A stretch of 64,000 nt of DNA from an uncultured Thermoplasmata archaeon (GCA_964354755.1 CAYHBA010000001.1:224009-288008), one strand, 5' to 3'; positions 15,527-48,524 are shown, numbered from the stretch's first letter. The notes: generated from the sequence alone by a model not told the origin. Made by a program: numbers and translations.

Positions 15527-15529
15527 GGG

Positions 15530-16822
15530 ATGAAAATGCTTGACAAGGGGCTGAGATATCTCATCTACGAGGCCAGGACCAATTTCACCTATGAGCTGTA
15601 CGCCGAGTTCCTGAAAACCGGCACGAAGGGGCTGTGCATCACCACAACTATACCCAAGAAGCTGGAGAAGGAATACGGCCTGAAGAACACGGAAATCGTC
15701 TGGATAACCGACATGGAAGGCGTGGAGAGCGCCTTTGACCCCAAAGACCTGAACAAGAAAATCTTGACCAGGGTGAAGCAGTTCACCGAAAGAAACAATG
15801 ACTGCGTCATTCTGATAGACGACCTCGGATACCTGATACTGGAGAACAGCTACACCGAGGTGAGCAAGTTCCTCGATGCCCTGAGCCAGTGCACGACAAA
15901 AGCCAAATGCACCCTCATGGTGCCGATCAACCCGGACTCTGTCACAAAGGAGATATCGAACGCACTGGTCAAGAAGTTCGACCAAGTTAAAGATGTAAGG
16001 AATTACATTCTCACTGGCAACAAGGTCGAATGCCCCGAATGCGGGGCCATGTGGCGGACCAATGTCGACGCATGCGACATCTGCGGCTACCAGTTCTCAG
16101 CGGAGACCAACAAGCCCGGGCTCACCACGGAGGAGAAGCCCATACCGAGGATGGAGGCAAAGGTCTCTGGCAAGCTCAGGGTCAAGCCCCCGGAGGAGGA
16201 TAAAAGGACGCCGGAACCGCCGCCACCGCTTGCCTACGATTTCGAGAACAGGCCTTCGGACGATTCCTGGTTCAACAGGGGCGTGGCCCTGGAGAAGATG
16301 GGGAAGAGCGAGCAGGCAGTGGAATGCTTCGACAAGGCGCTGGAGCAGAACCCGAACGATTCATGGGCATGGTTCAACAAGGGAGTGTCCCTTCACAGAC
16401 TCGGACTCCTGGGCGAGGCACTTTACTGCTATGACAAGGCCCTCACCTACAACCCGAACGATCCGGACTTACTATCGAACAAGGGCATTGCCCTCAGGAC
16501 GCTGGGCAGGGCGGACGAAGCCCTTCAATGCTACAAGAAAGCCCTGTCCATCAACCCGGCGGATTCGGGCATCTGGTCCAACATGGGCGTCACGTACCGG
16601 GTCATGGGCATGAACGATGCGGCGCTGGACGCGTACAACAAGGCCCTGACCATAGACCCCTATGATGTGGGAGTGTGGCTGAATAAGGCCGCCGCGCTTC
16701 AGTCGCAGGGCAAGTTCGACGAGGCAATTGTCTGCTACGAGGAAGTGCTGAGAATCAACCCGTACCACCCCGTCGCGCTGAGGAACAAGGAATTCGCAAT
16801 GTCTAGGACGCTGCGCAGCTGA
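15530..16822 (+). CDS. DUF835 - zinc ribbon - TPR repeat protein, paralog of the upstream gene
   Basis: N-terminal domain paralogous to 13847..15526 (GLCITTTIPKKLEKEYG...VILIDDLGYL). CPECG...CDICGY zinc ribbon. C-terminal TPR repeats. Confidence 0.6.
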   Translation: MKMLDKGLRYLIYEARTNFTYELYAEFLKTGTKGLCITTTIPKKLEKEYGLKNTEIVWITDMEGVESAFDPKDLNKKILTRVKQFTERNNDCVILIDDLGYLILENSYTEVSKFLDALSQCTTKAKCTLMVPINPDSVTKEISNALVKKFDQVKDVRNYILTGNKVECPECGAMWRTNVDACDICGYQFSAETNKPGLTTEEKPIPRMEAKVSGKLRVKPPEEDKRTPEPPPPLAYDFENRPSDDSWFNRGVALEKMGKSEQAVECFDKALEQNPNDSWAWFNKGVSLHRLGLLGEALYCYDKALTYNPNDPDLLSNKGIALRTLGRADEALQCYKKALSINPADSGIWSNMGVTYRVMGMNDAALDAYNKALTIDPYDVGVWLNKAAALQSQGKFDEAIVCYEEVLRINPYHPVALRNKEFAMSRTLRS

Positions 16823-17808: not shown

Positions 17809-18247
17809 AACCCTGATAATCGGGCTGAGTCAGGAAATTGCGGACCTGATGATGAAGGGCGGCATCGATGTCGTGGAGTTCAAGCTGCATTGTACTGATT
17901 TATCTCTGGTGGTTCTGACCTGCATATCTTCCCGCGTGAAGAAGGCAGACCATCAGGATCTTGTCAAGATGCTCAAGAAAGCCGGGCGCACCTATATCAC
18001 GCTGTTTCTTTCGGATGCCCAGATTCCAACGCTGATGGCCATCAGCGCAGATGTCGGTGGCATATCTGGCTCGTATCGTTGCCATCATGAAGGGATATTT
18101 GTCACGTATGAAGGAAAGACATTCAACATTCTGCTGAAGTTCGTGCATGAGAAAGTTGGCGCCAAGTTGCTGTTGAGCCAGAGACTTCAAGACGCGCTGG
18201 CTGAAAAGAATGGCGTCATCGAACGACAGGCCGCGACAATGGGATAA
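17777..18247 (+). CDS. Hypothetical protein immediately upstream of the large terminase, positional candidate for a small terminase subunit
   Basis: TTG start with a GGAGGA RBS 6 nt upstream. Ends 4 nt before the terminase start. No recognisable motifs. Confidence 0.35.
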   Translation: MAKKESIKYHETLIIGLSQEIADLMMKGGIDVVEFKLHCTDLSLVVLTCISSRVKKADHQDLVKMLKKAGRTYITLFLSDAQIPTLMAISADVGGISGSYRCHHEGIFVTYEGKTFNILLKFVHEKVGAKLLLSQRLQDALAEKNGVIERQAATMG

Positions 18248-18251
18248 TTGT

Positions 18252-19916
18252 ATGACTAACAATGCGCTCCTGAAAGCGCTTGTCAATCTCGAGAAGAGCG
18301 ACAACGAACGAACCCTCGCCCTCCGGAATGCAGTCACCTGGGCGATTAAATATGGCATTGTGCCGAGAGGACCCGAGGCAGGAAAGAAGTTCTCCTTCGC
18401 TGGCCGGCCATGGATGGTCGAACCGTATCTGGTATTGTCCCAGCCCCATGGCCGCGCCGTATTCGTGAAGGCTCGCCAGCTGGAGTTCTCGACCATGGCA
18501 ATCAACGTCGAGCACTACTGGGCGGACAAGCGGCCGTATACGGCCTGCGCCCATGTCTTCCCCACTGCCAAGCAGATGAACAAATTCTATGAGGAACGAT
18601 TAACGGTGATCTACCGCAAAGGCTCCAGATTCTTTGAAATGCTGGCCAACATGAAAGCCGATGGCATGGAAGTTCTGAACCGGAAGATGCACCTCTTCCG
18701 GAACAGCAGCTATTATTCCATGGAGTTCACGGTCGGCGAGAACGGGGGGAAATCCGAAGGTCTCAGGTCCCCAGCGCTGGACGTTCTGGCCTGCGATGAG
18801 CGCGCGGATTTCCCAGCTGATATTTCTCCAGTTCTGACGGAAGCTCTGAGCCACAGTGATATAAAAGTCCAGTTCGACCTGGGAACCCCGACCTACAACG
18901 ATACAGAGCTGGACAAGATGTGGAAGCTCAGCACTATGGAGGAATGGAAAGTTCATTGCAAGTCATGCGATCGCAAGCAAAATCTTACCATGGACAACCT
19001 CATGGCCAATGAATACGGGGAATATTTCAAAGGTTGCATAAATTGCCGTGCGGAGCTGGACACGACAATCGGCTCCTGGGTCGCCTTCAATCCGGAGGGA
19101 TTCTACCGAGGATTCCACCTCAACCAAATCGTAGCGCCCTGGGTATCCGCAAAGGAAATCCTGCAGAAAAAAGCAGAATACCTGCCCCGACGATTCGCAA
19201 ACGAGGTTATGGGCATGGCCTTTGTTGGGGATGAAAAGCTCCGCTTCAGAGCCAAGGTCATGGCCCGCGCCGATACCACAGGAGAATACCGACCGACAGT
19301 GATTTACGGAAATACCGTGGTAATCGGAGTCGATCACGGAAACTCGACCCGATGGATCGCAATATCCCGAAAAGAAGATGGGAAGACAGTCTGGCTTGAC
19401 ACTGGGGAGATCGACGATGTCGATATCAACAATCATGCGCTGAAGATCGCGGAGTTGGCGTATGGCTACGAGAGAAACAGCGTTCGCGTCGCCCTCATGC
19501 TCGATAGCGGTTATGGAAAGGCGCAGAACCAGAAGCTGATGAAGTTGTTCCCGCACCGGGCCTTTGCGGTCTTTTACGGCGGGGAGAAGATGACCCGCCC
19601 TGCATGGCAGGACAAACCCCTGGAACAACACGTCACAATCGAGCATACCAGTCTCTGCGAGAATGCCGAGCAATACCTGAACGCTGGAAACTTTGTCGTG
19701 CCTTTCGGGCAGGGAGGCATAGACTCGACGCGCTGGTCAAGTCTTCTTGATGAGTTCGACGCTGTGCGAGTTGAAGAAGAGGAGATAAAAACCGGGGGAA
19801 AGAAGCGGGTCTTCGTGACCAAACATGGGCACGGCTACATGGCCATGGCCTACGCCTTGCTCTGGTTCGAGAGAACCGGATTCAACCGGGAGCTGAGAAA
19901 GCCGAGGTCCGCATGA
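18252..19916 (+). CDS. Terminase large subunit (lambda GpA-like family)
   Basis: FAGRPWMVEPY...AVFVKARQLEFST resembles the GpA N-terminal ATPase region, and the length and position fit. Internal ATG at 18252 chosen over the track start 18210. Confidence 0.65.
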   Translation: MTNNALLKALVNLEKSDNERTLALRNAVTWAIKYGIVPRGPEAGKKFSFAGRPWMVEPYLVLSQPHGRAVFVKARQLEFSTMAINVEHYWADKRPYTACAHVFPTAKQMNKFYEERLTVIYRKGSRFFEMLANMKADGMEVLNRKMHLFRNSSYYSMEFTVGENGGKSEGLRSPALDVLACDERADFPADISPVLTEALSHSDIKVQFDLGTPTYNDTELDKMWKLSTMEEWKVHCKSCDRKQNLTMDNLMANEYGEYFKGCINCRAELDTTIGSWVAFNPEGFYRGFHLNQIVAPWVSAKEILQKKAEYLPRRFANEVMGMAFVGDEKLRFRAKVMARADTTGEYRPTVIYGNTVVIGVDHGNSTRWIAISRKEDGKTVWLDTGEIDDVDINNHALKIAELAYGYERNSVRVALMLDSGYGKAQNQKLMKLFPHRAFAVFYGGEKMTRPAWQDKPLEQHVTIEHTSLCENAEQYLNAGNFVVPFGQGGIDSTRWSSLLDEFDAVRVEEEEIKTGGKKRVFVTKHGHGYMAMAYALLWFERTGFNRELRKPRSA

Positions 19917-20215
19917 CCACCGAGGAAGAGATCAGAGAGCTGGAGAAGGTCCTGGCGGAGCTGAGGCGAAAGCCTTCTGACCGCCCGCAGGGAAACGCAA
20001 CTTCCTCGATTGATATCCTCCGATACCTTATCGGCCGGCCGGAGAAGCTCCGGGCAACGACCAAGATAATGAAGGCCTTCAACCTCTCTTACTCCATGTT
20101 CGTGGAGAGAATGTACATGTCCCTGGGCAAGGGCTGGATCGAGAAGGAGAGGAAAAACAACAGGGTGGTCTGGTCGGTCACGGAGGAGGGGAGGAAGATA
20201 TTGAGGGAGGAGTGA
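19913..20215 (+). CDS. Small winged-helix DNA-binding protein
   Basis: 100 aa with a wHTH-like IDILRYLIGRPEKLRATTKIMKAFNLSYSMFVERMYMSLGKGWIEKE segment. Confidence 0.4.
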   Translation: MTTEEEIRELEKVLAELRRKPSDRPQGNATSSIDILRYLIGRPEKLRATTKIMKAFNLSYSMFVERMYMSLGKGWIEKERKNNRVVWSVTEEGRKILREE

Positions 20216-22068
20216 AGTGGCAATCAATGCAACGGAGTTCCGACTTTTCGAATTATTTTATATATCCTCTGAATTATGCAGGTTCTATGAAAGCGGGAGC
20301 ATTTCCATTTAGTGTACTAAAAATGGAGGGGAGACTTACAATACCATTTTTCCAGCGAGGCTATATCTGGATAGAAGACAATTGGCAAGATTTACTCGAA
20401 GACATGGAAAGCGCAAACAAGAAACATTTCTGGGGATCATTAATTTTCAAACATGAAAAGGAAACAACCGGTGAACCAAAGAAAATTATCATCATCGACG
20501 GTCAACAAAGATTAACGACGATGAGTATAATGTTAAAGGCATTATACGATACATTCTCGCCGGGTATTAAGACAAGCACAAAATCAGTAGTAGAAGACTT
20601 GTTGTTATACAGGGTAAGTTCTACATCTCCAAAGTTTCAAGTCAGAATCCAACACTCACGTATTGACAGAAAATCCTATAAAAAGGTTATAACGTCTGGA
20701 TTAGGAGAAACAGAATTAACGGATGCTGAAATCAAAGATAATAATCCAATAATGAATTGCTACAGGTGGTATACTGAGAAACTTTCATCCAAAACCGAAA
20801 GTGCCCGGGAATTTATCTTCAACACCCTTACAAATATTGATAACAAAATGCTGGTCATCATCGACCTTGATGAAGATGATAATGAACAGACAATTTTTGA
20901 TACAATCAATACGGCAGGGGTAAGATTAACAAGTACTGACATTATAAAAAACAAACTCTTCCAAAAAGTCGTGGAATTATTCGATGAAGACCAGGCTATT
21001 GAGTATTATAAGAATACATGGGAGAATTGTTTTTTAAAGGATGAAGAAGCGAATGCTTATTGGCTTGGTGAGAGTTCAGAAGGAAGGATGACAAGGACCA
21101 ATAGCGATATTTTGCTCCATTCGGTAGCGGTTATCCAAGGATTTTACAATCCAGTGGATGATAAGCTCGGGGATTTACCCACCCGTTACAAGGAAAAAAT
21201 CGATGGATATGATTCATCAACCAAAGACAAACTCATTGAATTCATCAAAGAAATCAAAGCCTTTGCGACCATTTATAGGATGGATGTACCTGTATTCGAT
21301 AAAGACTTCCTATTGACATACACCAGGCAAGAGGAAAGATTGTTCCATATCCTCCATGAATTGAATATATCAACATTTCATCCTTACATACTATACATCC
21401 TGAAGAAATATCCCGCTGGGAGTGCGGAGAGAGCTAAAGGATTATACGACCTCGAAAAATTCGTCATGAGGAATATGATGGCGAAGAATCAAACAAGGAG
21501 CTATATCAATTATTGTAAAGAATTCATAGACGATCCATCTGAGATTATGAGGAAATATGCAAAGATAACTGATGCTGAAGTGGCTGCAGGTCTGAGGGAC
21601 ATCAGGACTAATGGAACCGCATCATTGATATTGTTCTGGATAGAGTTAAAACGGCTTGAAGACCCGCACGATGTCAAAGAGCTGCATTACCATTATTCCC
21701 TTGAACACATAATGCCTCAGAAGTGGGAGCCACATTGGACGGATCTTCCAACAACTCATACAGATGGCACGCCATTATCCGTTGACGAAATAGCTGAGGC
21801 CAAAGCTGAACGTTACAAACGCGTGTACTGGCTTGGCAATATGACTCTTCTCAGAACCAGGTTGAACTCTTCACTTAGGAATCATACCTATGAAAGAAAA
21901 ATGAATGGAGAGGGAAAGAAGAAAGGAATCAAGGATTATGCCTCTCTGACAATCACACGTGCAGACCTCGTAGAGCCTTTCCAAACGCTAGGGCAAACAA
22001 AATGGAATGAATCGAAGATAGAGGGACGAACTAGGAAACTTGAAGAGGAAATCAAGGCATTGTGGTAA
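20212..22068 (+). CDS. GmrSD-family type IV restriction endonuclease (DUF262 ParB-like NTPase + DUF1524 His-Me nuclease)
   Basis: Hallmark IIDGQQRLTT motif in the N-terminal domain. C-terminal HYHYSLEHIMPQKW matches the DUF1524 EHI.P nuclease motif. The gene is AT-rich. Confidence 0.8.
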   Translation: MKWQSMQRSSDFSNYFIYPLNYAGSMKAGAFPFSVLKMEGRLTIPFFQRGYIWIEDNWQDLLEDMESANKKHFWGSLIFKHEKETTGEPKKIIIIDGQQRLTTMSIMLKALYDTFSPGIKTSTKSVVEDLLLYRVSSTSPKFQVRIQHSRIDRKSYKKVITSGLGETELTDAEIKDNNPIMNCYRWYTEKLSSKTESAREFIFNTLTNIDNKMLVIIDLDEDDNEQTIFDTINTAGVRLTSTDIIKNKLFQKVVELFDEDQAIEYYKNTWENCFLKDEEANAYWLGESSEGRMTRTNSDILLHSVAVIQGFYNPVDDKLGDLPTRYKEKIDGYDSSTKDKLIEFIKEIKAFATIYRMDVPVFDKDFLLTYTRQEERLFHILHELNISTFHPYILYILKKYPAGSAERAKGLYDLEKFVMRNMMAKNQTRSYINYCKEFIDDPSEIMRKYAKITDAEVAAGLRDIRTNGTASLILFWIELKRLEDPHDVKELHYHYSLEHIMPQKWEPHWTDLPTTHTDGTPLSVDEIAEAKAERYKRVYWLGNMTLLRTRLNSSLRNHTYERKMNGEGKKKGIKDYASLTITRADLVEPFQTLGQTKWNESKIEGRTRKLEEEIKALW

Positions 22069-22091
22069 ACAAGAATGCAACCTAGCTGAAA

Positions 22092-22745
22092 TCACGAAAA
22101 TTTCGTCTCCATCATCCTATCGATTTCACCCTGCCCATATTTATTGATAACATAATCCATGTATTCTTCGATTCCCATCATTCTTGCGAGCTTATGTGAC
22201 CATCTTTTAAACTGTAGGTCTGAATAATAGAACATAGTATTCTTATCAAATGGCTCCACAATCCGGATTATGTATCCATCTTCGACAAATCCCACTCTAC
22301 GAATAGTCATCAACTCCCGAATTCGAACTCTCTTCCACCTGTCGGAATTATCAAAGTCGAGGACTATCTGCCCATTTATTAGTTCGAGGGGTATTTGGCG
22401 TGAGTTGGCAAGATTCTTGAAGTCGGAATCAATCTTCTCCATCAGTTTCTGAGTCATAACCCAGCATTTCTGATTGCCGTGGTATTTTCTTATCCATCTG
22501 ATTCGAGAGTTCATCAGGGCTTCGTATCTGATTTTAGGAATTTTTCCTATATTTTTACGAAGTGGAGCTGAGCCTGTTCTGTCTGTGATGTGGTTGGATA
22601 TAAAATCTCCATCATCCATTGTTATCAAATGAATGTCTCCCACACCCTCAAGGCAGAGTCCAAAAACCATTCCGTCCTTGGTTTGTCCATAAAACATAAT
22701 GCCTTTGTCCAGAGCAGTAATCTTAACGGTTTTCTTTTTCCCCAT
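22092..22745 (-). CDS. Hypothetical protein (AT-rich island)
   Basis: 217-aa ORF with no recognisable motif. Confidence 0.4.
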   Translation of the reverse strand: MGKKKTVKITALDKGIMFYGQTKDGMVFGLCLEGVGDIHLITMDDGDFISNHITDRTGSAPLRKNIGKIPKIRYEALMNSRIRWIRKYHGNQKCWVMTQKLMEKIDSDFKNLANSRQIPLELINGQIVLDFDNSDRWKRVRIRELMTIRRVGFVEDGYIIRIVEPFDKNTMFYYSDLQFKRWSHKLARMMGIEEYMDYVINKYGQGEIDRMMETKFS

Positions 22746-22805
22746 CTCAAGCCACGCTCACTTGACCGTTCATCAATCCTCGATGCCATTGCTGATAATT
22801 AAAGG

Positions 22806-23126
22806 TCACCCTTCAAAATAATTCCGTAATCTCTGCTCAATGACAGTGCAACCAAAATTGATAGGTTTATCAGTGATTTTCACAGTCACGATATTACCAG
22901 AGACACTATATGAACCAGATACCTTTCCTGAAAAACATCCACTCTGCGTATCCCCGCTAACTATTACACCGTTCCTCGCTGCTTCTTGTCTTACGTGTCC
23001 CAGAATTAAGTTTAAATCCATCCTGACTCGAATTGTAAATGTTGGACACCCGGACATAATAATAGTTAGGATTCCGGGCGATAAATAAATTGTGGTAAAA
23101 AAAAATAGGTCAGTGAGGGTTACCAA
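22806..23126 (-). CDS. Hypothetical protein
   Basis: 106-aa ORF. An alternative ORF exists on the opposite strand, so coding status is weak. Confidence 0.25.
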   Translation of the reverse strand: MVTLTDLFFFTTIYLSPGILTIIMSGCPTFTIRVRMDLNLILGHVRQEAARNGVIVSGDTQSGCFSGKVSGSYSVSGNIVTVKITDKPINFGCTVIEQRLRNYFEG

Positions 23127-23194
23127 TTAGACATCCAATTAACTTTTCTAATTGGACAGGAAAATATTTACAGTGTCAAGTCCATCCACGCCAT

Positions 23195-23548
23195 GTGAGA
23201 ATCAAGATATATGTCGGTACGGCCGCAGTGGGCGAAGGCGAACGGACGACCAGCACAGGCTACCATAGCACGCGTCTGACTTATTCCAAATTATATGACT
23301 GCCTCGATTCCACCGCCATGCATTCCGGGGATATGGAGGACGAATGCATCAAGACATTACATCTTGTAAGCCGGTTCGCAGAGGAGCATGGCCTGGAATT
23401 GAAGATGTACGATGTTTCGCACGATTATGCCGCTTTCAGGGCCTGGCTCGACAGAGTGAAATCCATACCCACCGTAATCATCGGAAAAAAGAAGTTCGAG
23501 GGTGTTCCGGAAATCGAGGAACTTGAAAAAGCCCTAAAAACCAATTAG
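23195..23548 (+). CDS. Thioredoxin/glutaredoxin-fold protein without a CxxC motif
   Basis: The C-terminal FRAWLDRVKSIPTVIIGKKKFEGVPEIEELEKAL is glutaredoxin-like. It is paralogous to 46247..46612 (FFKGVKILPTVIIGKHIL). The true start may be an internal ATG. Confidence 0.45.
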   Translation: MRIKIYVGTAAVGEGERTTSTGYHSTRLTYSKLYDCLDSTAMHSGDMEDECIKTLHLVSRFAEEHGLELKMYDVSHDYAAFRAWLDRVKSIPTVIIGKKKFEGVPEIEELEKALKTN

Positions 23549-23562
23549 AATTTATAAAAAAA

Positions 23563-23935
23563 GATAGGCAGGGATTTAGTCATTTCTGACATGGTTGGAG
23601 AGAGATTCCCTGCCCAAAGTGGGGAAGAGTTAAGCGTGATATTGCCCACATAAGCCTCAGCTTCCCGAAAAGGATAATAGTGCGGGGGGGATTTATAGAT
23701 ATAGATTGAAATTATGGAAATGAGAACCATAAATGAGATGAAATAACAAAACGGTAGAAAAAGAGAGGGCAGGGCATTTGGCCATTTCTGGCAATACATT
23801 GGGTAAAGACACCCTGCCCAAATTTTGGGGAAGAGTTGATCGTGAATATTCTGCCCACATAAATGCCTGCTTCCCGAAAAGGATAATAGGGCGGAGGGAT
23901 TTATAGGTTAGGGTTAGGTTGAAATTATGGTAGAA
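23563..23935. repeat. Duplicated ~160-bp structured leader
   Basis: Units at ~23563-23720 and ~23766-23935 share ggcaggg..catttctg.ca...ccctgcccaaa..tggggaagagtt...tgcccacataa...cttcccgaaaaggataatag..gg..gggatttatag...ttgaaattatgg. The second copy ends at the ATG of gene 23927. The first ends in a 9-codon mini-ORF. Confidence 0.75.
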
Positions 23936-24442
23936 GAAAAGGCAAAAGAGAAGAAAAAAGAAAATAATCCGGAGTTTGTTTTAACTGCCGCGACTATGAA
24001 TGCTATTGCGGATATAGTCAAATCACAAAAACGCACAGAAGATTTGGTTAGAGCTACAATGGCATCACAAAGTACATTGGCAACATTAAATCAAATCGCT
24101 CAAAATTCATTAGCAATACAGAGATTCATGGCCCCAACAATGAGCATCTTGGCCTCCCATTTAAATGAAAAAAAAGCAATGGAAAATTTACATCAACAAA
24201 TGCAATCTATAGCATGCTACGAAAAAACGTTATCTTCCCCCTCAATTGGATTAATAAAACCTGAAATGGCGATAATTGCCACAAATCAGCAAAAGATTGA
24301 TGAACGGTTGGATAGAATTGAAAAATTAGTAAAAAGAGTAATTCAATTACTTGGCGAAACCGAACTTTCTGAGGAACAAAAGAAACAACTCGAAAAATTA
24401 ATGAAAGAAATCAATGAAGAAACCGATAAAGCATACAGTTGA
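23927..24442 (+). CDS. Coiled-coil hypothetical protein
   Basis: 171 aa, K/E-rich with heptad character. Confidence 0.45.
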   Translation: MVEEKAKEKKKENNPEFVLTAATMNAIADIVKSQKRTEDLVRATMASQSTLATLNQIAQNSLAIQRFMAPTMSILASHLNEKKAMENLHQQMQSIACYEKTLSSPSIGLIKPEMAIIATNQQKIDERLDRIEKLVKRVIQLLGETELSEEQKKQLEKLMKEINEETDKAYS

Positions 24443-24942
24443 TTGGTAATTGAGGTGATGTTATTACTGGCAGACCAAGAAGACCAAGCCGAAAGGAAAT
24501 TGAAAAACAATCGGAAAAAGCCCGTAGAAGAGTTAAAACCGAACCAATAGAATAATGGAAATAAATAGCCATTATACTCTTAATCAGGCAACGGTTTCCT
24601 TTGTTGATAGTTGCATACGACTTTAGTAAGCAATGCAGGGAAAAGAAAGGCAAAATAAAAGCCGCCGCCCCTACCCTTTCAGCGTCATCCAGCGCAGTAT
24701 CAATAACGCCATTATTATCGCGTTCAGAAAAATTCCTGTGTTATAGCCAATACAAAAATTATAGACCATTCCGATCAAACAAATGAGAAGCCCGCTGCTC
24801 AGGATGGCTTTTATCACTCTTCCGTTCATCAATGCTCAATGCTATTGCTGATAGTTAAGGATTGGTAAAGAAAAGACTTGCCCGGAAGGGATAATTCGGA
24901 CCTAGGATCCAGAATGAAGGGGCGACTACGAAGTTTAGTGCA

Positions 24943-25293
24943 ATGACATTATGTAATAAACTGTTAAAGCATGTTAAATGTATGTTAATCATCTTTAAAT
25001 CGTATCATAACTATTTACAGTTAATGGACGAATCATTAGAAATAATCAACTGGTTGAAAAGTGGAAAATATAGAGTTCCAATGCTAAACGAATTACTATC
25101 TCCTAAATCGCCATCTGAACTTGCTGGCATTCTAAATATAAATCGTGCCTCTGTTAGTAGGATAATAAAGGATCTAACTAGTAAAAAATTGATAGATTGC
25201 ACTGAATCTGGTGCCAAAACAAAGTTATGTATTATTAATGAAAAAGGCAAACACATAATAAAACTCTTTTATGATATCGTGGGTGGTGGATGA
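24943..25293 (+). CDS. Winged-HTH transcriptional regulator, possible restriction-modification controller
   Basis: SPSELAGILNINRASVSRIIKDLTSKKLID is HTH-like. It lies immediately upstream of, and overlaps, the putative endonuclease gene. Confidence 0.45.
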   Translation: MTLCNKLLKHVKCMLIIFKSYHNYLQLMDESLEIINWLKSGKYRVPMLNELLSPKSPSELAGILNINRASVSRIIKDLTSKKLIDCTESGAKTKLCIINEKGKHIIKLFYDIVGGG

Positions 25294-26050
25294 TATAAAT
25301 ATTTCATTTCTTAAAAAGGCAATGGTGAATAGACGGGTACCAAAACCCGCTTCAGGCACGTTGTCTGGACACGCTGCTGGAGAACCCTTTGATAAACTTG
25401 TTTATCAATTAATTAAAGAAAAATATCCTAATAAAACTTTTAGGCAATATGAATACTTAAATAAATTATACCTTGATCATCCCAAGGTAACAACTTACAA
25501 AGATAGGTATAGTTTAATTTCATCTCCTGCATTGAGACTTTTATTAAATCGAGGCGTTGGTGTCACTAAAAAATGGACCTCTACTAATCAACTGAAAGAA
25601 AAGCAAGATGATACAGCTGATACATTATTGATTTCTGGAAATTTCCATCATATTATTGATGTAAAAACACGAAATATAGACAAAAAGGCACTTGCACCAA
25701 ATATTATTTCTGCTAAAAAGTTAGCAGAGATGTCTTTAATAATGATTAAAGAAACGGATTTTGATAGTTTTAAAATAACATACGTAGGTGTCGATTGGGC
25801 CCTTGAGGGGGCTTATTTAGTTTGTAGTAAAACAACAATGAAAGATATATTTCAGGCAACTCCCTCTTCCTTGTATATAAATTGGTCTGCAGCCAATCAA
25901 ATCCAGTTCCATGTTGAAAAACTTGACCAAAGTTATAAAAAAGGAATTAAGACTTGGTGTAAAGAATATCTCGCTCATTATGTCGAATCTGCAAATCATC
26001 GAATGAAACACTTTCGTAAGAAATTTATTAAACCATTCGATATCGATTAG
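25271..26050 (+). CDS. Putative type II restriction endonuclease (PD-(D/E)xK candidate)
   Basis: ADTLLISGNFHHIIDVKTR has PD...(D/E)xK spacing. The gene is convergent with and abuts the methyltransferase gene. Confidence 0.45.
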   Translation: MISWVVDDINISFLKKAMVNRRVPKPASGTLSGHAAGEPFDKLVYQLIKEKYPNKTFRQYEYLNKLYLDHPKVTTYKDRYSLISSPALRLLLNRGVGVTKKWTSTNQLKEKQDDTADTLLISGNFHHIIDVKTRNIDKKALAPNIISAKKLAEMSLIMIKETDFDSFKITYVGVDWALEGAYLVCSKTTMKDIFQATPSSLYINWSAANQIQFHVEKLDQSYKKGIKTWCKEYLAHYVESANHRMKHFRKKFIKPFDID

Positions 26051-27835
26051 TTAATAAATCATGGAATCTAAAATTTTATCGATATCTTCCTTTCCTTTAC
26101 TTGATTGTGTTTTAATTATGTGGTCTACTATCTTCACGATTTTATTATGTATGGCAACTTCATTATCATTTGACCAGTCGATTAATCTTATGGGTATTTT
26201 TGAAAGTGGTTTTTCAGAAAATTCAAGTACGCCACCTCTTGCTAAGCCTTGATATTTTAACCAAGTTAATATGGTGTTTGAATTTAGTTGGGCTAGAATG
26301 AATCGAATATCCTCCTTTACCCATTGTTTTAAAACGATACCAGTTACATCTTGTGTCGGATAAAATTGCCCCTGGATATATGAAAAACGAGCATAATTTC
26401 TCTTATCAATTCGTTCTTTACATGGACAGAATATTTTAGAATCGTTTGTATGAAACAATTCCCAATTTCTTAAGAACACCCATTGCCACCAGGGAATATT
26501 ACGATTATAGGAATATCTGGCATTTAATTTTTCTTTGTGTTTTAATAGTTGATTATATACATGTGGCATCTTCTCTTTTAATTCCCTCTCTGAATGAAGA
26601 TTGTTAAGGAAGATATAGGGGGTATATCCAGTAGCCCAATATTGTTTAAGATCATACGCTTTTATTACGTTGATAATGTATGATTTTTCTGTCTTATTAA
26701 GTGTGTTCAAATCTGAGAGTTGGAATGCTCGGTCCAATCCGCTTACAAGACCATTTCCTATTTCTGCAATATCTCCGAGTCTAATATTTCTCTCAAGATT
26801 GAAATCCTCATTTATCTTTAAGGTTGGATTAGAGAGTGTATAGTATTTCGTTCCAGTAAAATTAATTTCGGAACATATATTTTTAGGGATATCCAATTCC
26901 TCTAAATCGTCTTTCGTGAAAAGTTTAGCTAAGCTATAATAATCTGTTTTTCCATTTAATGTACATTTTACTTTAGGAGAATATATGTGTTTTGTTTGTT
27001 TCAAAACAGAAATTATTGCTTCATATTGTGGTGGAATAATGTTCCAGGGCTGTCCGTTATGAAATTGATGGTGAAGGTATGCTTCATAAATATCTTCGTT
27101 CAGATAAGGATTTCTACTTGATAATTTATTGAGTATTACTGAAATTTCCTCTAGATGGGTAGCTGTTAATCGTTTCTTACTATTTACATTTACAACGAGG
27201 ATGGGCATATTTTGTTTTTTGATACTTTTAATGAATTTAAAGATAATGATCGAGGAGGACACATTATCAAATATCCTCATTTCATTAAAATTAATTATGT
27301 GTGTGATAGTTCCATTTTCTGTGAGAAAACGTCGTAATTTGCTGGCATGAAGGGTTTTTAACCAAAATCCCGGAGTAATAAAAATTAATTCTCCGTTTTC
27401 TTTTAATGCGTCTACAGATGAATAAATAAAGGGATATAGTAAATCTGCCAGGCTGTTCAATCGTTCTTTCCAGATTTCATTTTCTGTTAAATATTGTTGA
27501 AAATCTTTAGGCATGTTTTTCCATCTTACATATGGAGGATTCCCAATTACTAAATCGTAATGATTTTGTAATTCGAGCTTTAAGAAATCTGTATATTTCA
27601 TTTCTATCTTGGATTTATTGTCTAATGTATTATCAATTTCAAATGCATCGATATTATGGTAACCTAATTGTGATAAAATTTCAAGAAAGACTCCTTCGCC
27701 TGCTGATGGCTCACAAATTAGTTGTTTTTCCTTTATTGATGAAAGAGACACCATGAACTTGACAACAATTTCTGGGGTGAATATTTGTCCATACTGTTTT
27801 TCTTTTTCAACCATGATTACCACATCAATTAACAT
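26051..27835 (-). CDS. Type II N6-adenine DNA methyltransferase (gamma class, TaqI-like) with C-terminal target-recognition domain
   Basis: Motif X IFTPEIVVKFMV, motif I CEPSAGEGVFL and motif IV VIGNPPYV, in that order. Confidence 0.8.
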   Translation of the reverse strand: MLIDVVIMVEKEKQYGQIFTPEIVVKFMVSLSSIKEKQLICEPSAGEGVFLEILSQLGYHNIDAFEIDNTLDNKSKIEMKYTDFLKLELQNHYDLVIGNPPYVRWKNMPKDFQQYLTENEIWKERLNSLADLLYPFIYSSVDALKENGELIFITPGFWLKTLHASKLRRFLTENGTITHIINFNEMRIFDNVSSSIIIFKFIKSIKKQNMPILVVNVNSKKRLTATHLEEISVILNKLSSRNPYLNEDIYEAYLHHQFHNGQPWNIIPPQYEAIISVLKQTKHIYSPKVKCTLNGKTDYYSLAKLFTKDDLEELDIPKNICSEINFTGTKYYTLSNPTLKINEDFNLERNIRLGDIAEIGNGLVSGLDRAFQLSDLNTLNKTEKSYIINVIKAYDLKQYWATGYTPYIFLNNLHSERELKEKMPHVYNQLLKHKEKLNARYSYNRNIPWWQWVFLRNWELFHTNDSKIFCPCKERIDKRNYARFSYIQGQFYPTQDVTGIVLKQWVKEDIRFILAQLNSNTILTWLKYQGLARGGVLEFSEKPLSKIPIRLIDWSNDNEVAIHNKIVKIVDHIIKTQSSKGKEDIDKILDSMIY

Positions 27836-28030
27836 CTATTTAACTATTGTTTAACATCTATGTTCATCAACTGTGATTAATTCATTCAAATATTTAAGCA
27901 AGAAGGTGGGAAGACACCATAACTAAATTCATCCGAAATGGCTAACTCAAGGTCATCCCGCCGCGAGGCCAGATATTTGCAATTAGGTGAAATACCCTTT
28001 TAATACCACAAGCTGATTTTAATCGGCCTG

Positions 28031-29467
28031 ATGACCAAAGGTTCTGGAACAGGCAGGATGAGCATGGCCGGCATCAGCGAGATGCACCGCTCCAAGTGGA
28101 TGGGCGGCGGCCAGCAGTTTTTTCCGATGTCCCAATATTCCGGGAAATCCGGGGGGGCTTTTCAATCCGGGATCACCGACAAGAAGCTCATCGACATGTT
28201 TCTGAGAGACGAGATGGCTTACCGGATTGTCCGCGATTTCGCTGTTGATCCTCTGAAGAAGGGCTTTTCTGTCCAGGCCGCAGAGGATGACGGGGGGAAG
28301 TTCAAGGAGGATTGCTCGAAGATTCTTTCCTCTGTCGATACCATCAAGAAGCTGGGTTCTGCCAGGGTGCTGTCCAGACTGGCTGGGTTCAGCTTATTGC
28401 TGCTTGGGACAGAAGATTCCGCGCCTTCCGACAAGCCACCGGAGAACGTCAGGCGGCTGGCGTTTCTCAAGCCGGTGAGCAAGTGGAATGTCCGGGCCAT
28501 GCACCAGGATACTGATGCGTCTAGTCCTACCTTCGGGGAGATTATAGCGTATGACATCGCCAGCACCCTGCAGGGCGGGCTTACCGACACCAAAACAGTT
28601 TCTGCTGCCAGGGTCATTCACATTACGAACGACGAATTTGATTCTGATCCTCGCGGAGTCTCCACGCTGTTTCCTCTCTTCGATATCCAGAACATCAAGA
28701 AGGAAACCGATGCTGCTTTGGGGGAATCGGCTGTCAGGAACGCCGAGCCCTGGCGCGTTGTTACATTGCCTCCGGATGCGGACGAGGCCGAGGCGCAGGC
28801 TGTGGAAGATGAACTCTATGGTGGCAGGCGCAACATCTTCATCCAGCCGGGAACAGGGAACGACCAGACGGATTACAAATGGAAGCAGTTGCCCCCGAAC
28901 ACCATCAATCCGAAGGACTGGGTTGACTGGGTGAACACCCGCATTGCAGGCGGCTCCGGAATGCCGAAGACCATGCTCGAAGGCGCGACTCCCGGCAGCG
29001 TCACAGGTTCATGGGTCAGCCAGGCAGACTATTGGAAGAAATGCGGGGAGATGCAGGAAACGGATATTACGCCTATCATCGGCGAGTTGGTCCGCAGACT
29101 GCAGGGCTGGGGGCTTCTGGAAGAAAAGGATTTCGAGGTCTGCTGGCCGACATTGTGGGAGCTGGACGACAAGGAGCTTGCCGCAGTCGCCAACCTTCAG
29201 GCCAATGCATTTGCCAAGGTCGTGGCCGCGGCCAAGGACTTGTTCGAATTGCCGAAGGCCGGGGAACTCATGACCTGGGGCATAGACCAGCAGGGATTCT
29301 ATCTGGAATACGGAAAAGATTCTGGGCGGTACTACCCGATAGCAAACATGAGCAAGACCGGAATGAAGGTGCAGACCGGAGCCATCCGGCAGAGGAAGAA
29401 TGTTAAAAACAATCCTCAGAATGAAAGGATAAGGGAAGAACACGCGGGAGGCGGAACGCATGTCTAA
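28031..29467 (+). CDS. Putative portal protein
   Basis: 478 aa. It is the first gene of the morphogenesis block and is followed by scaffold/protease and capsid genes. The call rests on size and order only. Confidence 0.5.
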   Translation: MTKGSGTGRMSMAGISEMHRSKWMGGGQQFFPMSQYSGKSGGAFQSGITDKKLIDMFLRDEMAYRIVRDFAVDPLKKGFSVQAAEDDGGKFKEDCSKILSSVDTIKKLGSARVLSRLAGFSLLLLGTEDSAPSDKPPENVRRLAFLKPVSKWNVRAMHQDTDASSPTFGEIIAYDIASTLQGGLTDTKTVSAARVIHITNDEFDSDPRGVSTLFPLFDIQNIKKETDAALGESAVRNAEPWRVVTLPPDADEAEAQAVEDELYGGRRNIFIQPGTGNDQTDYKWKQLPPNTINPKDWVDWVNTRIAGGSGMPKTMLEGATPGSVTGSWVSQADYWKKCGEMQETDITPIIGELVRRLQGWGLLEEKDFEVCWPTLWELDDKELAAVANLQANAFAKVVAAAKDLFELPKAGELMTWGIDQQGFYLEYGKDSGRYYPIANMSKTGMKVQTGAIRQRKNVKNNPQNERIREEHAGGGTHV

Positions 29468-34309: not shown

Positions 34310-35032
34310 ATGGGCTGGTATGACAAGATGGAGGACACCGATGAACTGAACCTGTCCAGCCATGTCCCCGATGGCGGAGGCACATGGACGCAGGTAACTT
34401 ACACCAATGGAACAGCGAAGATTGATACTGCTCAGAAATTCGCTGGCAATTCATCAGCCAGGTTTTACTTATCAGGCACTAATCCCTTCCTGTACATGAG
34501 ATGCTCCATTACCGGGGTAATGGCAGATACATTTTATTGGAGAGTGAGATGGGATAACATAGGAAACAATCATTTAGTTCAGGGCATCCTGGGAACTGCA
34601 GCTGAAAAGTGGGGCCCGACATGGTATATTTATGGGGCATCAGGAACGCTATATTATGGTTCAGGGGTTTCCTACATAACTACTGGAAAGAATTTATCTA
34701 TTAACACTTGGTATGAATTAAAGGCCGAGTTCAACTGCACGACCAAGACTTATCTACTCTGGATTAAGGGGGGAACCTATGCGGATTGGACATTGGCCTG
34801 GGGGTCAGTAACATGGAAGGCCTTTTACAATAGCTTAGATGATTTTTCAGGAGGCATTACCAGAGTAGGCATAAGGACATTCCTAAATGGTGGGACAGGG
34901 ACCAAGAATTCATGGTGGGATGATTTATCTTTCGGTGAAATCGGAGCACATGACGCATATCTAAAGGTTGATGGCACAGCCTGGGCCGGGGATAATATTG
35001 CCACTAAAATAGATGGTGAGGTATTCACATGA
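34310..35032 (+). CDS. LamG/concanavalin-like lectin-fold protein (fibre or receptor-binding candidate)
   Basis: TWYELKAEFNCTTKTYLLWIKGG matches the LamG pattern TW..V.I..D....TY..WLNG. Paralog of 40847..41533. Confidence 0.5.
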   Translation: MGWYDKMEDTDELNLSSHVPDGGGTWTQVTYTNGTAKIDTAQKFAGNSSARFYLSGTNPFLYMRCSITGVMADTFYWRVRWDNIGNNHLVQGILGTAAEKWGPTWYIYGASGTLYYGSGVSYITTGKNLSINTWYELKAEFNCTTKTYLLWIKGGTYADWTLAWGSVTWKAFYNSLDDFSGGITRVGIRTFLNGGTGTKNSWWDDLSFGEIGAHDAYLKVDGTAWAGDNIATKIDGEVFT

Positions 35033-40850: not shown

Positions 40851-41533
40851 GGTTGATGACTTATGAATATTTTAAGTGGGATAGCACCTTAGAAGGCTGG
40901 CATCAAATTCTTTCATTATATTCCACTTGGACCATAGGTGTGTCAGCCACACATTACCATAGCAGCCCTAAGTCACTCAGACTTTTGTGGACCTCTGGAG
41001 GTTCCGATGCCTTCAGCTACTATCAGCATAGTGGGAATGCTATATCGGTAGGTTACTTTACTTTCTGGGTATATAGAACTGGGGGTAGTGTAGTCATGGT
41101 GCTAAATTCAAACATTACTGTGAATGCTGGTGTCGCTAACCCACCCACACCCTTTACTGATTGGAATGCAGCGATTGATATGGCAGGCACCGGGAATAAG
41201 GTGTATTACAGAAGCAGTGCTGGGGCCTGGGTGGATACTGGGGCTACAGCTGCAGCGAATACCTGGCATAGGGTGGATATTAGAATAGACTGCACCAATG
41301 ACACATATAGTGCCTGGCTAAATGGTGTCAAAATAGTGGATGAAGTGGCAGTAGCTAACAGCTTCACTGATGTACAGATGACCTATGTATGGGCATCTGG
41401 GACAGGTGGATATTACCTTGATGATGTGGAAATAGACGGGGTAGGGCCTCTGGAAGTCAATGAAGTCAGCTGGTGGTCTGAAATAAACGAAGTGGACATT
41501 TCAAACATATCAGAACTGAACGAGGTCAGCTGA
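40847..41533 (+). CDS. LamG-like lectin-fold tail fibre/receptor-binding candidate
   Basis: NTWHRVDIRIDCTNDTYSAWLNGVKIV. Paralog of 34310..35032. Confidence 0.5.
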   Translation: MRLMTYEYFKWDSTLEGWHQILSLYSTWTIGVSATHYHSSPKSLRLLWTSGGSDAFSYYQHSGNAISVGYFTFWVYRTGGSVVMVLNSNITVNAGVANPPTPFTDWNAAIDMAGTGNKVYYRSSAGAWVDTGATAAANTWHRVDIRIDCTNDTYSAWLNGVKIVDEVAVANSFTDVQMTYVWASGTGGYYLDDVEIDGVGPLEVNEVSWWSEINEVDISNISELNEVS

Positions 41534-48478: not shown

Positions 48479-48524
48479 GTTGAACGACCGAGCTCGGCCA
48501 TGAACATCTGGAAACGACGAGAGG

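What the first reader, a model, noticed from the sequence alone, without database searches (positions are those of the whole stretch)
19913..27900. Low-GC defence island inserted between terminase and portal: GmrSD type IV nuclease plus a complete type II restriction-modification system
In tailed viruses terminase and portal genes are normally adjacent. Here ~8 kb of visibly AT-rich DNA separates them. It carries a DUF262/DUF1524 GmrSD-like nuclease (DGQQR and EHI.P motifs), a wHTH regulator, a PD-(D/E)xK endonuclease candidate convergent with a gamma-class NPPY N6-adenine methyltransferase, Trx-fold and coiled-coil genes and several small ORFs. The contrast with the high-GC structural genes implies recent cross-lineage acquisition. 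A provirus arming its host with both a modification-dependent nuclease and a modification-based system is a notable anti-virus arsenal for an archaeal virus.
Basis: partly seen in the sequence, partly recalled or inferred. Interest (0 to 1): 0.65.

Follow-up and report, generated by a model that had tools for sequence, protein, structure and literature searches.

The report
Swappable defence island in archaeal provirus
A 7.7-kb AT-rich block between the DNA-packaging and portal genes of a tailed virus integrated in an archaeal chromosome carries two intact DNA-cutting immunity systems, and the closest related virus carries different restriction systems at the same spot, so this is a gene-swapping hotspot of a kind well known in bacterial viruses.

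Summary
Window 20218 to about 27926-27956 is a low-GC block (GC 0.30-0.43, GC3 0.25-0.45; flanks GC3 0.67-0.81) between the large terminase plus a conserved wHTH gene and the portal gene.

It encodes:
- an intact single-chain GmrSD-family type IV enzyme with DGQQR and EHIMP motifs;
- a complete HincII-family type II restriction-modification system. A wHTH gene overlaps a REase (Pfam 4e-94, about 50% identical to crystallised HincII, catalytic D/D/K kept), convergent with a gamma-class NPPY m6A methyltransferase.

The closest relative (TerL 92%, portal 93% identical, dN/dS about 0.06) carries different low-GC cargo at the same junctions: HsdM/HsdS and a HinfI-type system.

Corrections:
- The first wHTH gene (19913-20215) is backbone, not cargo.
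- The island is a mosaic of at least three modules. They are separated by conserved scaffold pieces: a 52-aa membrane-protein gene and a roughly 100-nt promoter-like element, both partly duplicated.
- "Recent cross-lineage" acquisition is not shown. The nearest REase homologue is 57% identical, and the cargo shares the host's GATC depletion.

This is a new member of a known kind, a virus-borne defence hotspot, and is moderately interesting.

The parts
18210..19916 (+). Large terminase, GpA type. Conserved left flank of the hotspot.
   Evidence: Pfam GpA_ATPase 6.4e-11. 92% aa identity to L002, dN/dS 0.058.
19913..20215 (+). 100-aa winged-helix protein. A backbone gene and the left anchor of the hotspot, not cargo.
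   Evidence: HTH_45 3.5e-7. GC3 0.81. 86% identical in L002 and 67% in L003, directly after TerL in both. Backbone homology ends at 20217.
20212..22068 (+). Single-chain GmrSD-family type IV restriction enzyme: DUF262 NTPase domain plus DUF1524 His-Me nuclease domain. The true start is probably the ATG at 20289, behind a TATA-like box.
   Evidence: GmrSD_N 4.9e-33 and GmrSD_C 1.7e-16. PADLOC Orf5 3.1e-44 over the full length and HEC-06 2.7e-43. DGQQR and EHIMP...N motifs. TATA-like box about 30 nt upstream of the ATG near 20289 (the script's index was one base off).
22092..22745 (-). o217: conserved protein of unknown function, convergent with GmrSD in the same compositional module.
22758..22802 (.). 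45-nt duplicate of the 5' end and upstream region of the S52 gene. Marks the right edge of the GmrSD module.
   Evidence: the repeat finder D2, 84% identical to 24814-24858.
22806..23126 (-). o106: doubtful ORF with a TTG start and no homologues found.
23195..23548 (+). Trx117: thioredoxin-fold protein without a CxxC motif. Intermediate GC.
   Evidence: Thioredoxin_3 2.6e-6. GC3 0.59. The sequence has no CxxC.
23592..23695 (+). R element, copy A: conserved non-coding promoter-like element, with no ORF of 25 aa or more downstream.
   Evidence: blastn to L002 6729-6827 and L009 530-635 at 86-87%. Alignment. No + strand ORF of 25 aa or more follows.
23799..23925 (+). R element, copy B. Ends in a TTTATA box 27 nt before the o171 ATG, followed by TAGGTTGAAAT.
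   Evidence: (D1, D11, D12).
23927..24442 (+). o171: low-GC protein that looks helical from its sequence; function unknown.
   Evidence: No family hits. GC3 0.28.
24671..24829 (-). S52: conserved 52-aa hydrophobic protein, probably with two transmembrane segments. A resident gene of the hotspot.
   Evidence: 83% nt and 83% aa identity to L002 6500-6658, dN/dS 0.165.
24943..25293 (+). wHTH116: small winged-helix regulator in the position of an R-M controller (C) protein. The likely start is the ATG at 25027. Its 3' end overlaps the REase start by 23 nt.
   Evidence: HTH_Crp_2 and MarR_2 hits, below the Pfam cut-offs. Csa3/Lrs14-type HTH hits. TATA-like box about 30 nt upstream of the ATG near 25027. 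ATGTTAA repeats at 24971 and 24982. Not homologous to the Xre-type C protein of L014.
25271..26050 (+). HincII-family type IIP restriction endonuclease (PD-(D/E)xK). Predicted target GTYRAC or a subset of it.
   Evidence: Pfam Endonuc-HincII 4.2e-94 over 1-244/247. PDB HincII 1.1e-78. D114/D127/K129 equivalents conserved and Gln138 replaced by Leu.
26051..27835 (-). Cognate gamma-class N6-adenine DNA methyltransferase, convergent with the REase. Stop codons abut, with no intergenic gap.
   Evidence: Eco57I 4.4e-24 and N6_Mtase 1.1e-11. PADLOC MTase_II 1.7e-147. Motif I before NPPY. Resembles M.TaqI and CamA. 40% identical over the full length to the MTase paired with the closest REase relative.
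27836..27956 (.). MTase 5' region with two ATGTTAA motifs, and the right junction of the island.
28031..29467 (+). Portal protein. Conserved right flank of the hotspot.
   Evidence: Phage_portal_3 1.7e-23. 93% identical in L009 and L010, dN/dS 0.060.

Best explanation
The region is a variable accessory hotspot in the packaging-head module of a head-tailed virus integrated in an archaeal, methanogen-type chromosome. It lies between the conserved TerL-wHTH unit and the portal gene. In this copy it holds two independent, apparently intact DNA-targeting immunity systems.

1. GmrSD-family type IV enzyme. It has a DUF262 NTPase domain with DGQQR and a DUF1524 His-Me nuclease domain with EHIMP...N. 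By analogy with GmrSD, BrxU and HEC-06, it should cut invading DNA that carries modified bases.

2. HincII-type type IIP restriction-modification system. The gamma-class methyltransferase marks an adenine in GTYRAC-like sites on the resident DNA. The REase dimer cuts unmethylated sites on incoming DNA. A small wHTH protein, co-transcribed with the REase and overlapping its start, occupies the place of the Xre-type controller protein found in the closest relatives. It probably times REase expression, with the ATGTTAA repeats in both 5' regions as candidate operators.

Together the two systems would cover unmodified invaders and invaders that escape by hypermodification.

Cargo is exchanged by recombination between related viruses at conserved anchors: the end of the wHTH gene, the S52 gene, the R promoter-like element and the portal upstream region.

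Shown here: composition, gene identities, motifs, intactness, the junctions, and different cargo in a relative. Inferred: expression in the lysogen, enzymatic specificities, the regulatory role of the wHTH protein, the recombination mechanism, and benefit to the host.
For: - Composition and junctions.
- GmrSD: both domains present. Full-length match to a PADLOC GmrSD-like model and to HEC-06. Motifs present. HEC-06 was shown experimentally to defend against phages and to need the DGQQR and EH residues (10.1101/2024.01.29.577857).
- REase: full-length HincII Pfam match at 4e-94. PDB HincII at 1e-78 with catalytic D/D/K conserved, and these residues are invariant in 121 family members.
- MTase: motif order I then IV, with a C-terminal TRD. 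The same regulator-REase-convergent-MTase architecture occurs with the closest REase relative, and that MTase is 40% identical at E 2e-139, so R and M are a co-inherited pair.
- Hotspot: a relative with TerL 92% and portal 93% identical carries HsdM+HsdS and an N6_N4 MTase plus HinfI REase at the same junctions, also at low GC, with no cargo in common.
- The backbone is under strong purifying selection, with dN/dS 0.06-0.14 at dS 0.5-0.8. Both lineages therefore maintain functional particles while the cargo turned over completely.
- Scaffold pieces are shared and partly duplicated at module borders.
- TATA-like boxes lie 27-32 nt before the likely starts of GmrSD, o171 and wHTH116.
Against: - No functional data of any kind.
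- GTYRAC is not depleted in host or virus DNA: 36 observed against 39-44 expected. There is therefore no footprint of long exposure to this REase.
- The REase has Leu where 116 of 121 relatives have the DNA-intercalating Gln138, so its specificity or activity may differ.
- The hotspot comparison rests on one related lineage. It was seen as two unjoined contigs from one sample plus one contig from a second sample. More distant TerL relatives in MAGs were uninformative.
- No integrase, replication or lysis genes were recognised in the window. The element may be defective or domesticated.
- The wHTH hits are below the Pfam cut-offs. The overall ATGTTAA count is not significant on its own: 4 observed against 1.5 expected, with 130 of 2000 shuffles reaching 4.
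Confidence: 0.75

Rival explanations
1. The systems serve the virus rather than the host. The type II R-M system acts as an addiction module: loss of the provirus dilutes the methylase and the REase then kills the cell. It may also act during lytic growth to degrade host or competitor DNA. GmrSD excludes superinfecting rivals. The genes are the same; the beneficiary and the timing differ.
For: The cargo sits inside the late packaging-head operon, with genes on both strands and their own TATA-like promoters. The closest HincII-type R-M relative also lies next to phage genes: Terminase_4, Mu_F and an integrase fragment. Post-segregational killing by type II R-M systems is established knowledge and was not tested here.
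Against: Nothing here separates this reading from host defence, and the two are not exclusive. No anti-restriction or host-takeover genes were recognised in the island.
Confidence: 0.35
2. The virus-like cluster is a defective or domesticated remnant (a gene-transfer-agent-like or cryptic element). The low-GC block is then an ordinary chromosomal defence island that accumulated in dispensable DNA, not cargo carried by a transmissible virus.
For: No integrase, att site, tRNA, replication or lysis genes were recognised in the 64-kb window. The recognisable virus genes are limited to about 17.0-42.8 kb and are flanked by host-like genes: DUF835-TPR on the left and aldehyde dehydrogenase on the right. 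Distant TerL relatives in MAGs look like remnants, with a split TerL in L007 and no portal nearby.
Against: TerL, portal and the DUF2213 protein show dN/dS 0.06-0.14 at dS 0.5-0.8 against the relative, so the particle genes are maintained by selection. The same junctions hold different cargo in the relative, which fits exchange between replicating elements. Many archaeal virus genes have no recognisable families, so a missing integrase hit is weak evidence.
Confidence: 0.2
3. The low GC reflects a standing pool of AT-rich accessory genes circulating within this virus-host lineage, not a recent transfer from a distant low-GC organism.
For: - The island modules are about 3-fold depleted in GATC, like host and backbone: 10 observed against 34-36 expected.
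- The islands of the relative show the same depletion, whereas the nearest R-M relatives L014 and L015 show none.
- The relative's cargo is also low-GC.
- No REase homologue is above 57% identity.
- The modules differ in GC3: 0.41-0.45, 0.59 and 0.25-0.28. This argues for several acquisitions at different times.
Against: GC3 of 0.25-0.28 in the R-M module against 0.67-0.81 in neighbouring genes shows almost no amelioration. The GATC counts per module are small: 3, 2 and 5.
Confidence: 0.5

Closest known systems
HincII / HindII restriction-modification system (Haemophilus influenzae; GTY/RAC, m6A)
   Same: The REase matches the Pfam HincII model over its full length (4e-94). It is about 50% identical to crystallised HincII with the catalytic Asp/Asp/Lys conserved. 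It is adjacent to an N6-adenine methyltransferase with NPPY.
   Different: - Leu replaces the intercalating Gln138, the only such case among 121 family members.
- A winged-helix regulator precedes the REase, where the closest relatives have an Xre-type C protein.
- The MTase has an insertion of about 64 aa relative to its nearest relative.
- The system lies in an archaeal provirus.
- The recognition sequence is untested.
GmrSD-family type IV restriction enzymes (Eco94GmrSD, BrxU, SspE, HEC-06)
   Same: Fused DUF262 and DUF1524 architecture with DGQQR and (D/E)H..P nuclease motifs. The best PADLOC matches include HEC-06, which has been shown to defend against phages.
   Different: No significant sequence match to any solved structure. 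Only 25-28% identical to the few phage-borne homologues in GenBank. The target modification is unknown. The gene is paired with an uncharacterised convergent gene, o217.
Prophage-encoded defence hotspots (P2/P4 hotspots; Rousset et al. 2022, PMC9122126)
   Same: Conserved flanking core genes, complete turnover of cargo between close relatives, and cargo dominated by restriction-type defence systems.
   Different: - The location is between large terminase and portal.
- The host is archaeal.
- The hotspot contains conserved internal scaffold elements (S52 and R) that are partly duplicated at module borders.
- Only one related lineage was available for comparison.
C-protein-controlled type II R-M systems (for example Esp1396I and PvuII)
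   Same: A small DNA-binding protein gene lies immediately upstream of the REase gene and overlaps it, with the MTase convergent. Repeated short motifs occur in both 5' regions.
   Different: The regulator is a winged-helix protein of MarR/Lrs14/Csa3-HTH type, not an Xre-type HTH. No palindromic C-box was found, and regulation is untested.

Membership tests
GmrSD family (type IV restriction) | N-terminal DUF262 (GmrS) domain with a DGQQR motif | tested here: met
   GmrSD_N 4.9e-33, residues 38-250. IIIIDGQQRLTT in the translation.
GmrSD family (type IV restriction) | C-terminal DUF1524 (GmrD) His-Me/HNH nuclease domain with a (D/E)H..P ... N motif | tested here: met
   GmrSD_C 1.7e-16, residues 455-610. 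LEHIMPQ, LGNMTLL and LNSSLRN in the translation.
GmrSD family (type IV restriction) | Cleavage depends on modified bases in the substrate | not testable with these tools
   Needs purified enzyme and modified DNA substrates.
HincII family of type II REases | Full-length match to the family model | tested here: met
   Pfam PF09226, 315 bits, residues 14-257 to model 1-244/247. PDB 2gig and 1kc6 at 1e-78.
HincII family of type II REases | Catalytic PD-(D/E)xK residues Asp114, Asp127 and Lys129 (HincII numbering) | tested here: met
   DTAD and DVK are conserved, and these residues are invariant in 121 aligned members including the window protein.
HincII family of type II REases | Intercalating Gln138. 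This is a hallmark of the HincII mechanism, not strictly required for family membership. | tested here: not met
   Leu at this column. 116 of 121 members have Gln, and the window protein is the only one with Leu.
HincII family of type II REases | Recognition and blunt cleavage of GTY/RAC | not testable with these tools
   Site statistics are uninformative: 36 observed against 39-44 expected outside the island.
Complete type II R-M system | Adjacent intact REase and DNA MTase that are inherited together | tested here: met
   Both ORFs are intact with abutting stop codons. The same pairing and orientation occur in L014, L015 and L016, with the REase 57% and the MTase about 40% identical.
Gamma-class N6-adenine DNA methyltransferase | AdoMet motif I (xxGxG) N-terminal to catalytic motif IV (NPPY), with the target-recognition domain C-terminal | tested here: met
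   EPSAGEGVF at about residues 42-50, GNPPY at about 98-102, and a C-terminal 240 aa conserved with relatives. Best solved relatives are CamA and M.TaqI.
C-protein-controlled R-M | Xre-type HTH controller protein with palindromic C-box operators | tested here: not met
   The upstream gene is a winged-helix protein with no similarity to the HTH_3 protein of L014. Only direct ATGTTAA repeats were found, and they are not significant by count. The arrangement resembles C-control, but the protein is not a member of the family.
Virus-borne defence hotspot | Conserved flanks with different cargo in related elements | tested here: met
   The L002, L009 and L010 junctions lie at window 20217 and 27957. 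No cargo protein is shared. Only one related lineage was available.
Integrated, complete provirus | Integrase, att sites, and replication and lysis modules | tested here: inconclusive
   None was recognised in the window. The structural genes are under purifying selection.

The most novel reading that the evidence does not exclude
The terminase-portal gap of this methanogen-type virus lineage may be a dedicated cargo platform rather than a passive insertion site. A resident small membrane-protein gene (S52) and a conserved promoter/leader element of about 100 nt (R) would supply both expression signals and recombination anchors. R ends in TATA-N-TAGGTTGAAAT-ATG. Homology breaks exactly where the cargo begins in all four copies, and a fragment of R sits at the relative's left junction. 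Defence cassettes would then be swapped behind a fixed promoter, in the way integron cassettes are. Within this platform, o217 would be a new defence or anti-defence partner of GmrSD: it is confidently folded, has no structural relatives, and is convergent with GmrSD. The Q138L REase would have a narrowed specificity.
Probability: 0.15. Interest if true: 0.6.

Novelty: new member of a known kind. Interest (0 to 1): 0.42.

Why it matters
- Defence hotspots carried by temperate viruses are well documented in bacteria. Documented examples with defined junctions in archaeal tailed proviruses are few.
- This locus gives precise junctions and a natural cargo swap, with type IV plus HincII-type R-M in one lineage and type I plus HinfI-type R-M in the other. 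It also gives conserved internal anchors.
- These flanks could be used to mine methanogen viruses for new immunity genes. Candidates here are o217, o171 and Trx117.
- It predicts a testable methylation motif (m6A in GTYRAC-like sites) for the host.
- It offers a natural Q138L variant of a structurally well-studied REase.

Tried and rejected
- **Source contig.** Exact-sequence look-ups of window proteins returned nothing.
- **More relatives.** IMG/VR has no close relative of TerL, portal or S52. TerL relatives at 32% identity in Methanosarcinales and Methanocellales MAGs have no recognisable portal nearby, and the candidate ORFs of about 400 aa are not portals. They could not be used to test the hotspot at greater depth.
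- **Adjacency baseline.** In ten distant GpA-type relatives an ORF of 530-1050 aa starts within about 1.1 kb of the TerL stop. Pfam recognised only one of these as a portal, and three carry LAGLIDADG or Hint insertions. This is suggestive only.
- **R element as a structured RNA.** No Rfam hit. No compensatory changes on either strand, though only four copies were available.
- **R core in public collections.** The exact 21-mer gave only short, uninformative matches in metagenomes and none in IMG/VR.
- **GTYRAC avoidance as a footprint of the REase.** Absent.
- **o217 function.** No family hit, no PDB sequence hit, and only weak fold matches. Its neighbours on two short contigs are unrelated unknowns.
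- **Second low-GC region at 46-51 kb.** No convincing defence hits; only a weak PDC-S09 match for a Pol-beta-type nucleotidyltransferase.
- **AFDB fold library.** Unavailable.

Full report
**1. Observation**

The 1-kb GC profile shows eight consecutive windows (20001-28000) at 0.31-0.43, flanked by 0.53-0.59. At 300-nt resolution the fall begins at about 20150-20300 and the recovery at about 27800-28000. Third-position GC separates the genes cleanly:

| Gene | GC3 |
|---|---|
| TerL | 0.67 |
| wHTH100 | 0.81 |
| portal | 0.69 |
| MCP | 0.80 |
| GmrSD | 0.41 |
| o217 | 0.45 |
| o106 | 0.35 |
| o171 | 0.28 |
| wHTH116 | 0.26 |
| REase | 0.25 |
| MTase | 0.27 |
| Trx117 | 0.59 |

The block is real and far beyond chance. 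It is also compositionally heterogeneous.

**2. Gene content**

Pfam identifies the flanks as a GpA-type large terminase (18210-19916) and a Phage_portal_3 portal (28031-29467). These are followed by a DUF2213 protein, an HK97/Linocin-fold capsid protein and, further on, a tail tube protein.

Inside the block:
- **20212-22068.** Carries GmrSD_N (4.9e-33) and GmrSD_C (1.7e-16). It matches PADLOC GmrSD-like models over the full length: Orf5 at 3.1e-44, HEC-06 at 2.7e-43. It shows IIIIDGQQRLTT, LEHIMPQ and the downstream Asn motifs.
- **25271-26050.** Matches the HincII endonuclease model end to end (4.2e-94). It aligns with crystallised HincII at 1e-78 with the DTAD and DVK catalytic residues in place.
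- **26051-27835 (-).** An Eco57I/N6_Mtase-type enzyme with motif I (EPSAGEGVF) ahead of NPPY. Its nearest solved relatives are CamA and M.TaqI. It is therefore a gamma-class m6A methyltransferase.
- **Trx117.** A weak thioredoxin-fold hit with no CxxC motif.
- **o217, o106, o171.** No family hits in Pfam, PADLOC, NCBIfam or PHROGs.

**3. What belongs to the island**

A metagenome contig, L002, encodes a TerL 92% identical to the window's, followed by the same 100-aa wHTH gene (86% identical). GC then drops immediately to 0.30-0.38, and the genes are HsdM- and HsdS-like.

A second contig from the same sample, L009, has a portal 93% identical to the window's. A near-identical contig from another sample, L010, matches it. 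Upstream of that portal lie an N6_N4 methyltransferase, a 436-aa unknown, a HinfI-family REase and two small genes.

blastn places the end of left-flank homology at window 20217, the stop codon of the wHTH gene. Right-flank homology resumes at 27957; MAFFT extends it weakly to about 27927. No cargo protein of the window has a match in L002, L009 or L010.

The wHTH gene at 19913-20215 is therefore backbone. The variable region is 20218 to about 27926-27956.

The backbone genes show dN/dS 0.06-0.14 at dS 0.5-0.8. The two lineages are well diverged, both maintain their particle genes, and the cargo has turned over completely.

**4. The island is a mosaic with conserved scaffold pieces**

Three short stretches inside the window's island are shared with the relative's island.

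- **S52.** Window 24646-24873 matches L002 6475-6695. It encodes, on the minus strand, a 52-aa hydrophobic protein with conservative substitutions and dN/dS 0.165. It is a resident gene of the hotspot.
- **R element.** An element of about 100 nt occurs twice in the window (23592-23695 and 23799-23925) and once each in L002 and L009. It has an invariant core followed by a purine-rich stretch, a TTTATA-like box and TAGGTTGAAAT. In copy B the o171 ATG follows directly. Similarity among the four copies ends at about the start codon, and the downstream genes differ in every copy. No Rfam family matches, and no covariation supports a structured RNA.
- **Duplicates at borders.** A 45-nt duplicate of the S52 5' end and upstream region sits at 22758-22802, at the right edge of the GmrSD-o217 module. 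The 11-mer TAGGTTGAAAT also lies exactly at L002's left junction.

Together with the three GC3 classes, this argues for several insertions or exchanges at conserved anchors rather than a single insertion. The recombination mechanism is inferred, not shown.

**5. The R-M system in detail**

Among 5.8 billion proteins the REase has one identical entry, from an NCBI contig of 385 kb that is presumably the source genome. Otherwise there is nothing above 57% identity. The named hits are bacterial: CPR lineages, Flavobacterium, Gammaproteobacteria and Bellilinea.

The closest relative, L014 to L016 (GC about 0.26), has the same layout. A 72-aa Xre-type HTH gene precedes the REase, and a 530-aa MTase is convergent. 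That locus lies next to phage genes: Terminase_4, Mu_F and an integrase fragment. The MTases are 40% identical over their full length (E 2e-139), and the window protein has an insertion of about 64 aa. R and M are therefore a co-inherited cognate pair.

The upstream regulator is not homologous. The window has a winged-helix protein with weak MarR, Lrs14 and Csa3-HTH similarity. Its probable start, the ATG at 25027, lies 25-32 nt downstream of a TTTAAAT box, and its end overlaps the REase start by 23 nt.

All four ATGTTAA heptamers in the 3.1-kb module lie in the two 5' regions, in the same orientation relative to each gene and spaced 11 and 22 nt apart. The count alone is not significant: 4 observed against 1.5 expected. 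I treat them as candidate operators only.

In an alignment of 121 family members the catalytic residues are invariant. The window enzyme is the only one with Leu at the Gln138 position, where 116 have Gln. Gln138 is the residue HincII inserts into the base stack (PMC3025569). Q138F is reported to sharpen preference for GTTAAC and GTCGAC (PMC2909958, citing Joshi et al. 2006). The specificity is therefore most likely GTYRAC or a subset of it; this is untested.

GTYRAC sites are not depleted outside the island (36 observed against 39-44 expected). Only two lie in the island, both in the GmrSD gene.

**6. Origin**

The composition is clearly foreign to the backbone, but recency is not demonstrated. 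GATC is about 3-fold under-represented in host DNA, virus backbone and every island module: 10 observed against 34-36 expected for the whole island. The islands of L002 and L009 show the same depletion. The nearest R-M relatives, L014 and L015, show none.

The cargo therefore probably comes from an AT-rich accessory pool that has long lived under the same GATC-directed pressure, rather than straight from a distant low-GC organism. The per-module counts are small, so this is suggestive.

**7. Context and caveats**

The host is inferred to be archaeal and methanogen-like on four lines of evidence:
- an archaeal LonB at 60353-62347;
- two DUF835-TPR proteins;
- TATA-box and near-leaderless gene starts;
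- distant TerL relatives in Methanosarcinales and Methanocellales MAGs.

No tRNA, integrase, replication or lysis genes were recognised. The recognisable virus genes span about 17.0-42.8 kb. Whether the element is inducible is unknown.

No HincII-family REase occurs in 50,697 deposited phage genomes. GmrSD-like genes occur in only eight, at 25-30% identity.

**8. Verdict**

The gap between TerL-wHTH and portal is a variable defence hotspot. In this copy it carries a GmrSD-family type IV enzyme and a complete HincII-type R-M system.

Each component belongs to a known family, and virus-borne defence hotspots are an established concept in bacteria (PMC9122126). The finding is therefore a new member of a known kind. 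The points of modest novelty are:
- the archaeal setting and the terminase-portal location;
- the conserved internal scaffold, S52 and R;
- the winged-helix replacement of the controller protein;
- the unique Q138L substitution;
- the uncharacterised o217 family.

Noticed in passing
whole window; also L002 and L009: GATC is about 3-fold under-represented everywhere: 90 observed against 246-335 expected outside the island, and 10 against 34-36 inside it. CTAG is also low. This points to long-standing GATC-directed restriction pressure in this lineage. The low-GC cargo shares the depletion, whereas the nearest R-M relatives L014 and L015 do not.
   Followed up: partly
window 23592-23695 and 23799-23925; L002 6689-6833; L009 492-636: R is a conserved non-coding element of about 100 nt, found only in these hotspots. 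It ends in a TATA-like box and TAGGTTGAAAT just before a start codon. The downstream gene differs in every copy. The 11-mer also sits exactly at L002's left island junction (L002 2942). There is no Rfam match and no covariation.
   Followed up: partly
window 24671-24829 (-); L002 6500-6658 (-): S52 is a conserved 52-aa hydrophobic protein, probably with two transmembrane segments, resident in the hotspot of both lineages (83% identical, dN/dS 0.165). A 45-nt copy of its 5' end and upstream region is duplicated at window 22758-22802.
   Followed up: partly
window 25271-26050, residue aligned with HincII Gln138: This REase is the only one of 121 aligned HincII-family members with Leu at the DNA-intercalating Gln138 position. 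The engineered Q138F variant is reported to narrow HincII specificity.
   Followed up: partly
window 22092-22745 (-): o217 belongs to a small uncharacterised family of about 57 representatives, with nearly invariant His39, His52, Glu121 and Trp137. Its AlphaFold model is very confident (pLDDT 94.6), but it has no convincing structural relative in the PDB or BFVD.
   Followed up: partly
window 46247-50614: A second low-GC stretch (GC 0.33-0.39, GC3 0.32-0.37) lies just beyond the virus-like genes. It holds a tandem-GNAT acetyltransferase, a Pol-beta-type nucleotidyltransferase (weak PADLOC PDC-S09 hit) and unknowns. It may be another accessory island.
   Followed up: partly
window 13847-16822: Two tandem paralogous genes encode DUF835 plus TPR-repeat proteins (559 and 430 aa, GC3 0.79). 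They lie immediately upstream of the virus-like region.
   Followed up: no
window 17000-42900: No integrase, att site, tRNA, replication or lysis gene was recognised around the packaging, head and tail genes. The element may be defective, domesticated, or simply too divergent to annotate. Genes at 34310-36522 and 40847-41533 also have lowered GC3 (0.44-0.54).
   Followed up: partly
L014 4070-6649 (GCA_019057995.1), also L015 and L016: The closest HincII-type R-M relative is in contigs of about 26% GC and also sits among phage genes (Terminase_4, Mu_F, an integrase fragment). It has an Xre-type C protein where the window has a winged-helix protein.
   Followed up: partly
L020, L022, L036 (IMG/VR): In distant GpA-type relatives the large ORF directly after TerL, presumably the portal, carries LAGLIDADG or Hint (intein-like) insertions.
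   Followed up: no
L007 9809-11506; L005 17009-19096: In Methanocellales and Methanosarcinales MAGs the TerL homologues look like remnants. TerL is split into two ORFs in L007, and no portal is nearby. L005 has a 695-aa N6_N4 DNA methylase 5.5 kb downstream of TerL.
   Followed up: partly
window 23127-23194: The divergent intergenic region between o106 and Trx117 contains an inverted repeat, CCAATTA-N7-TAATTGG. It may be an operator.
   Followed up: no
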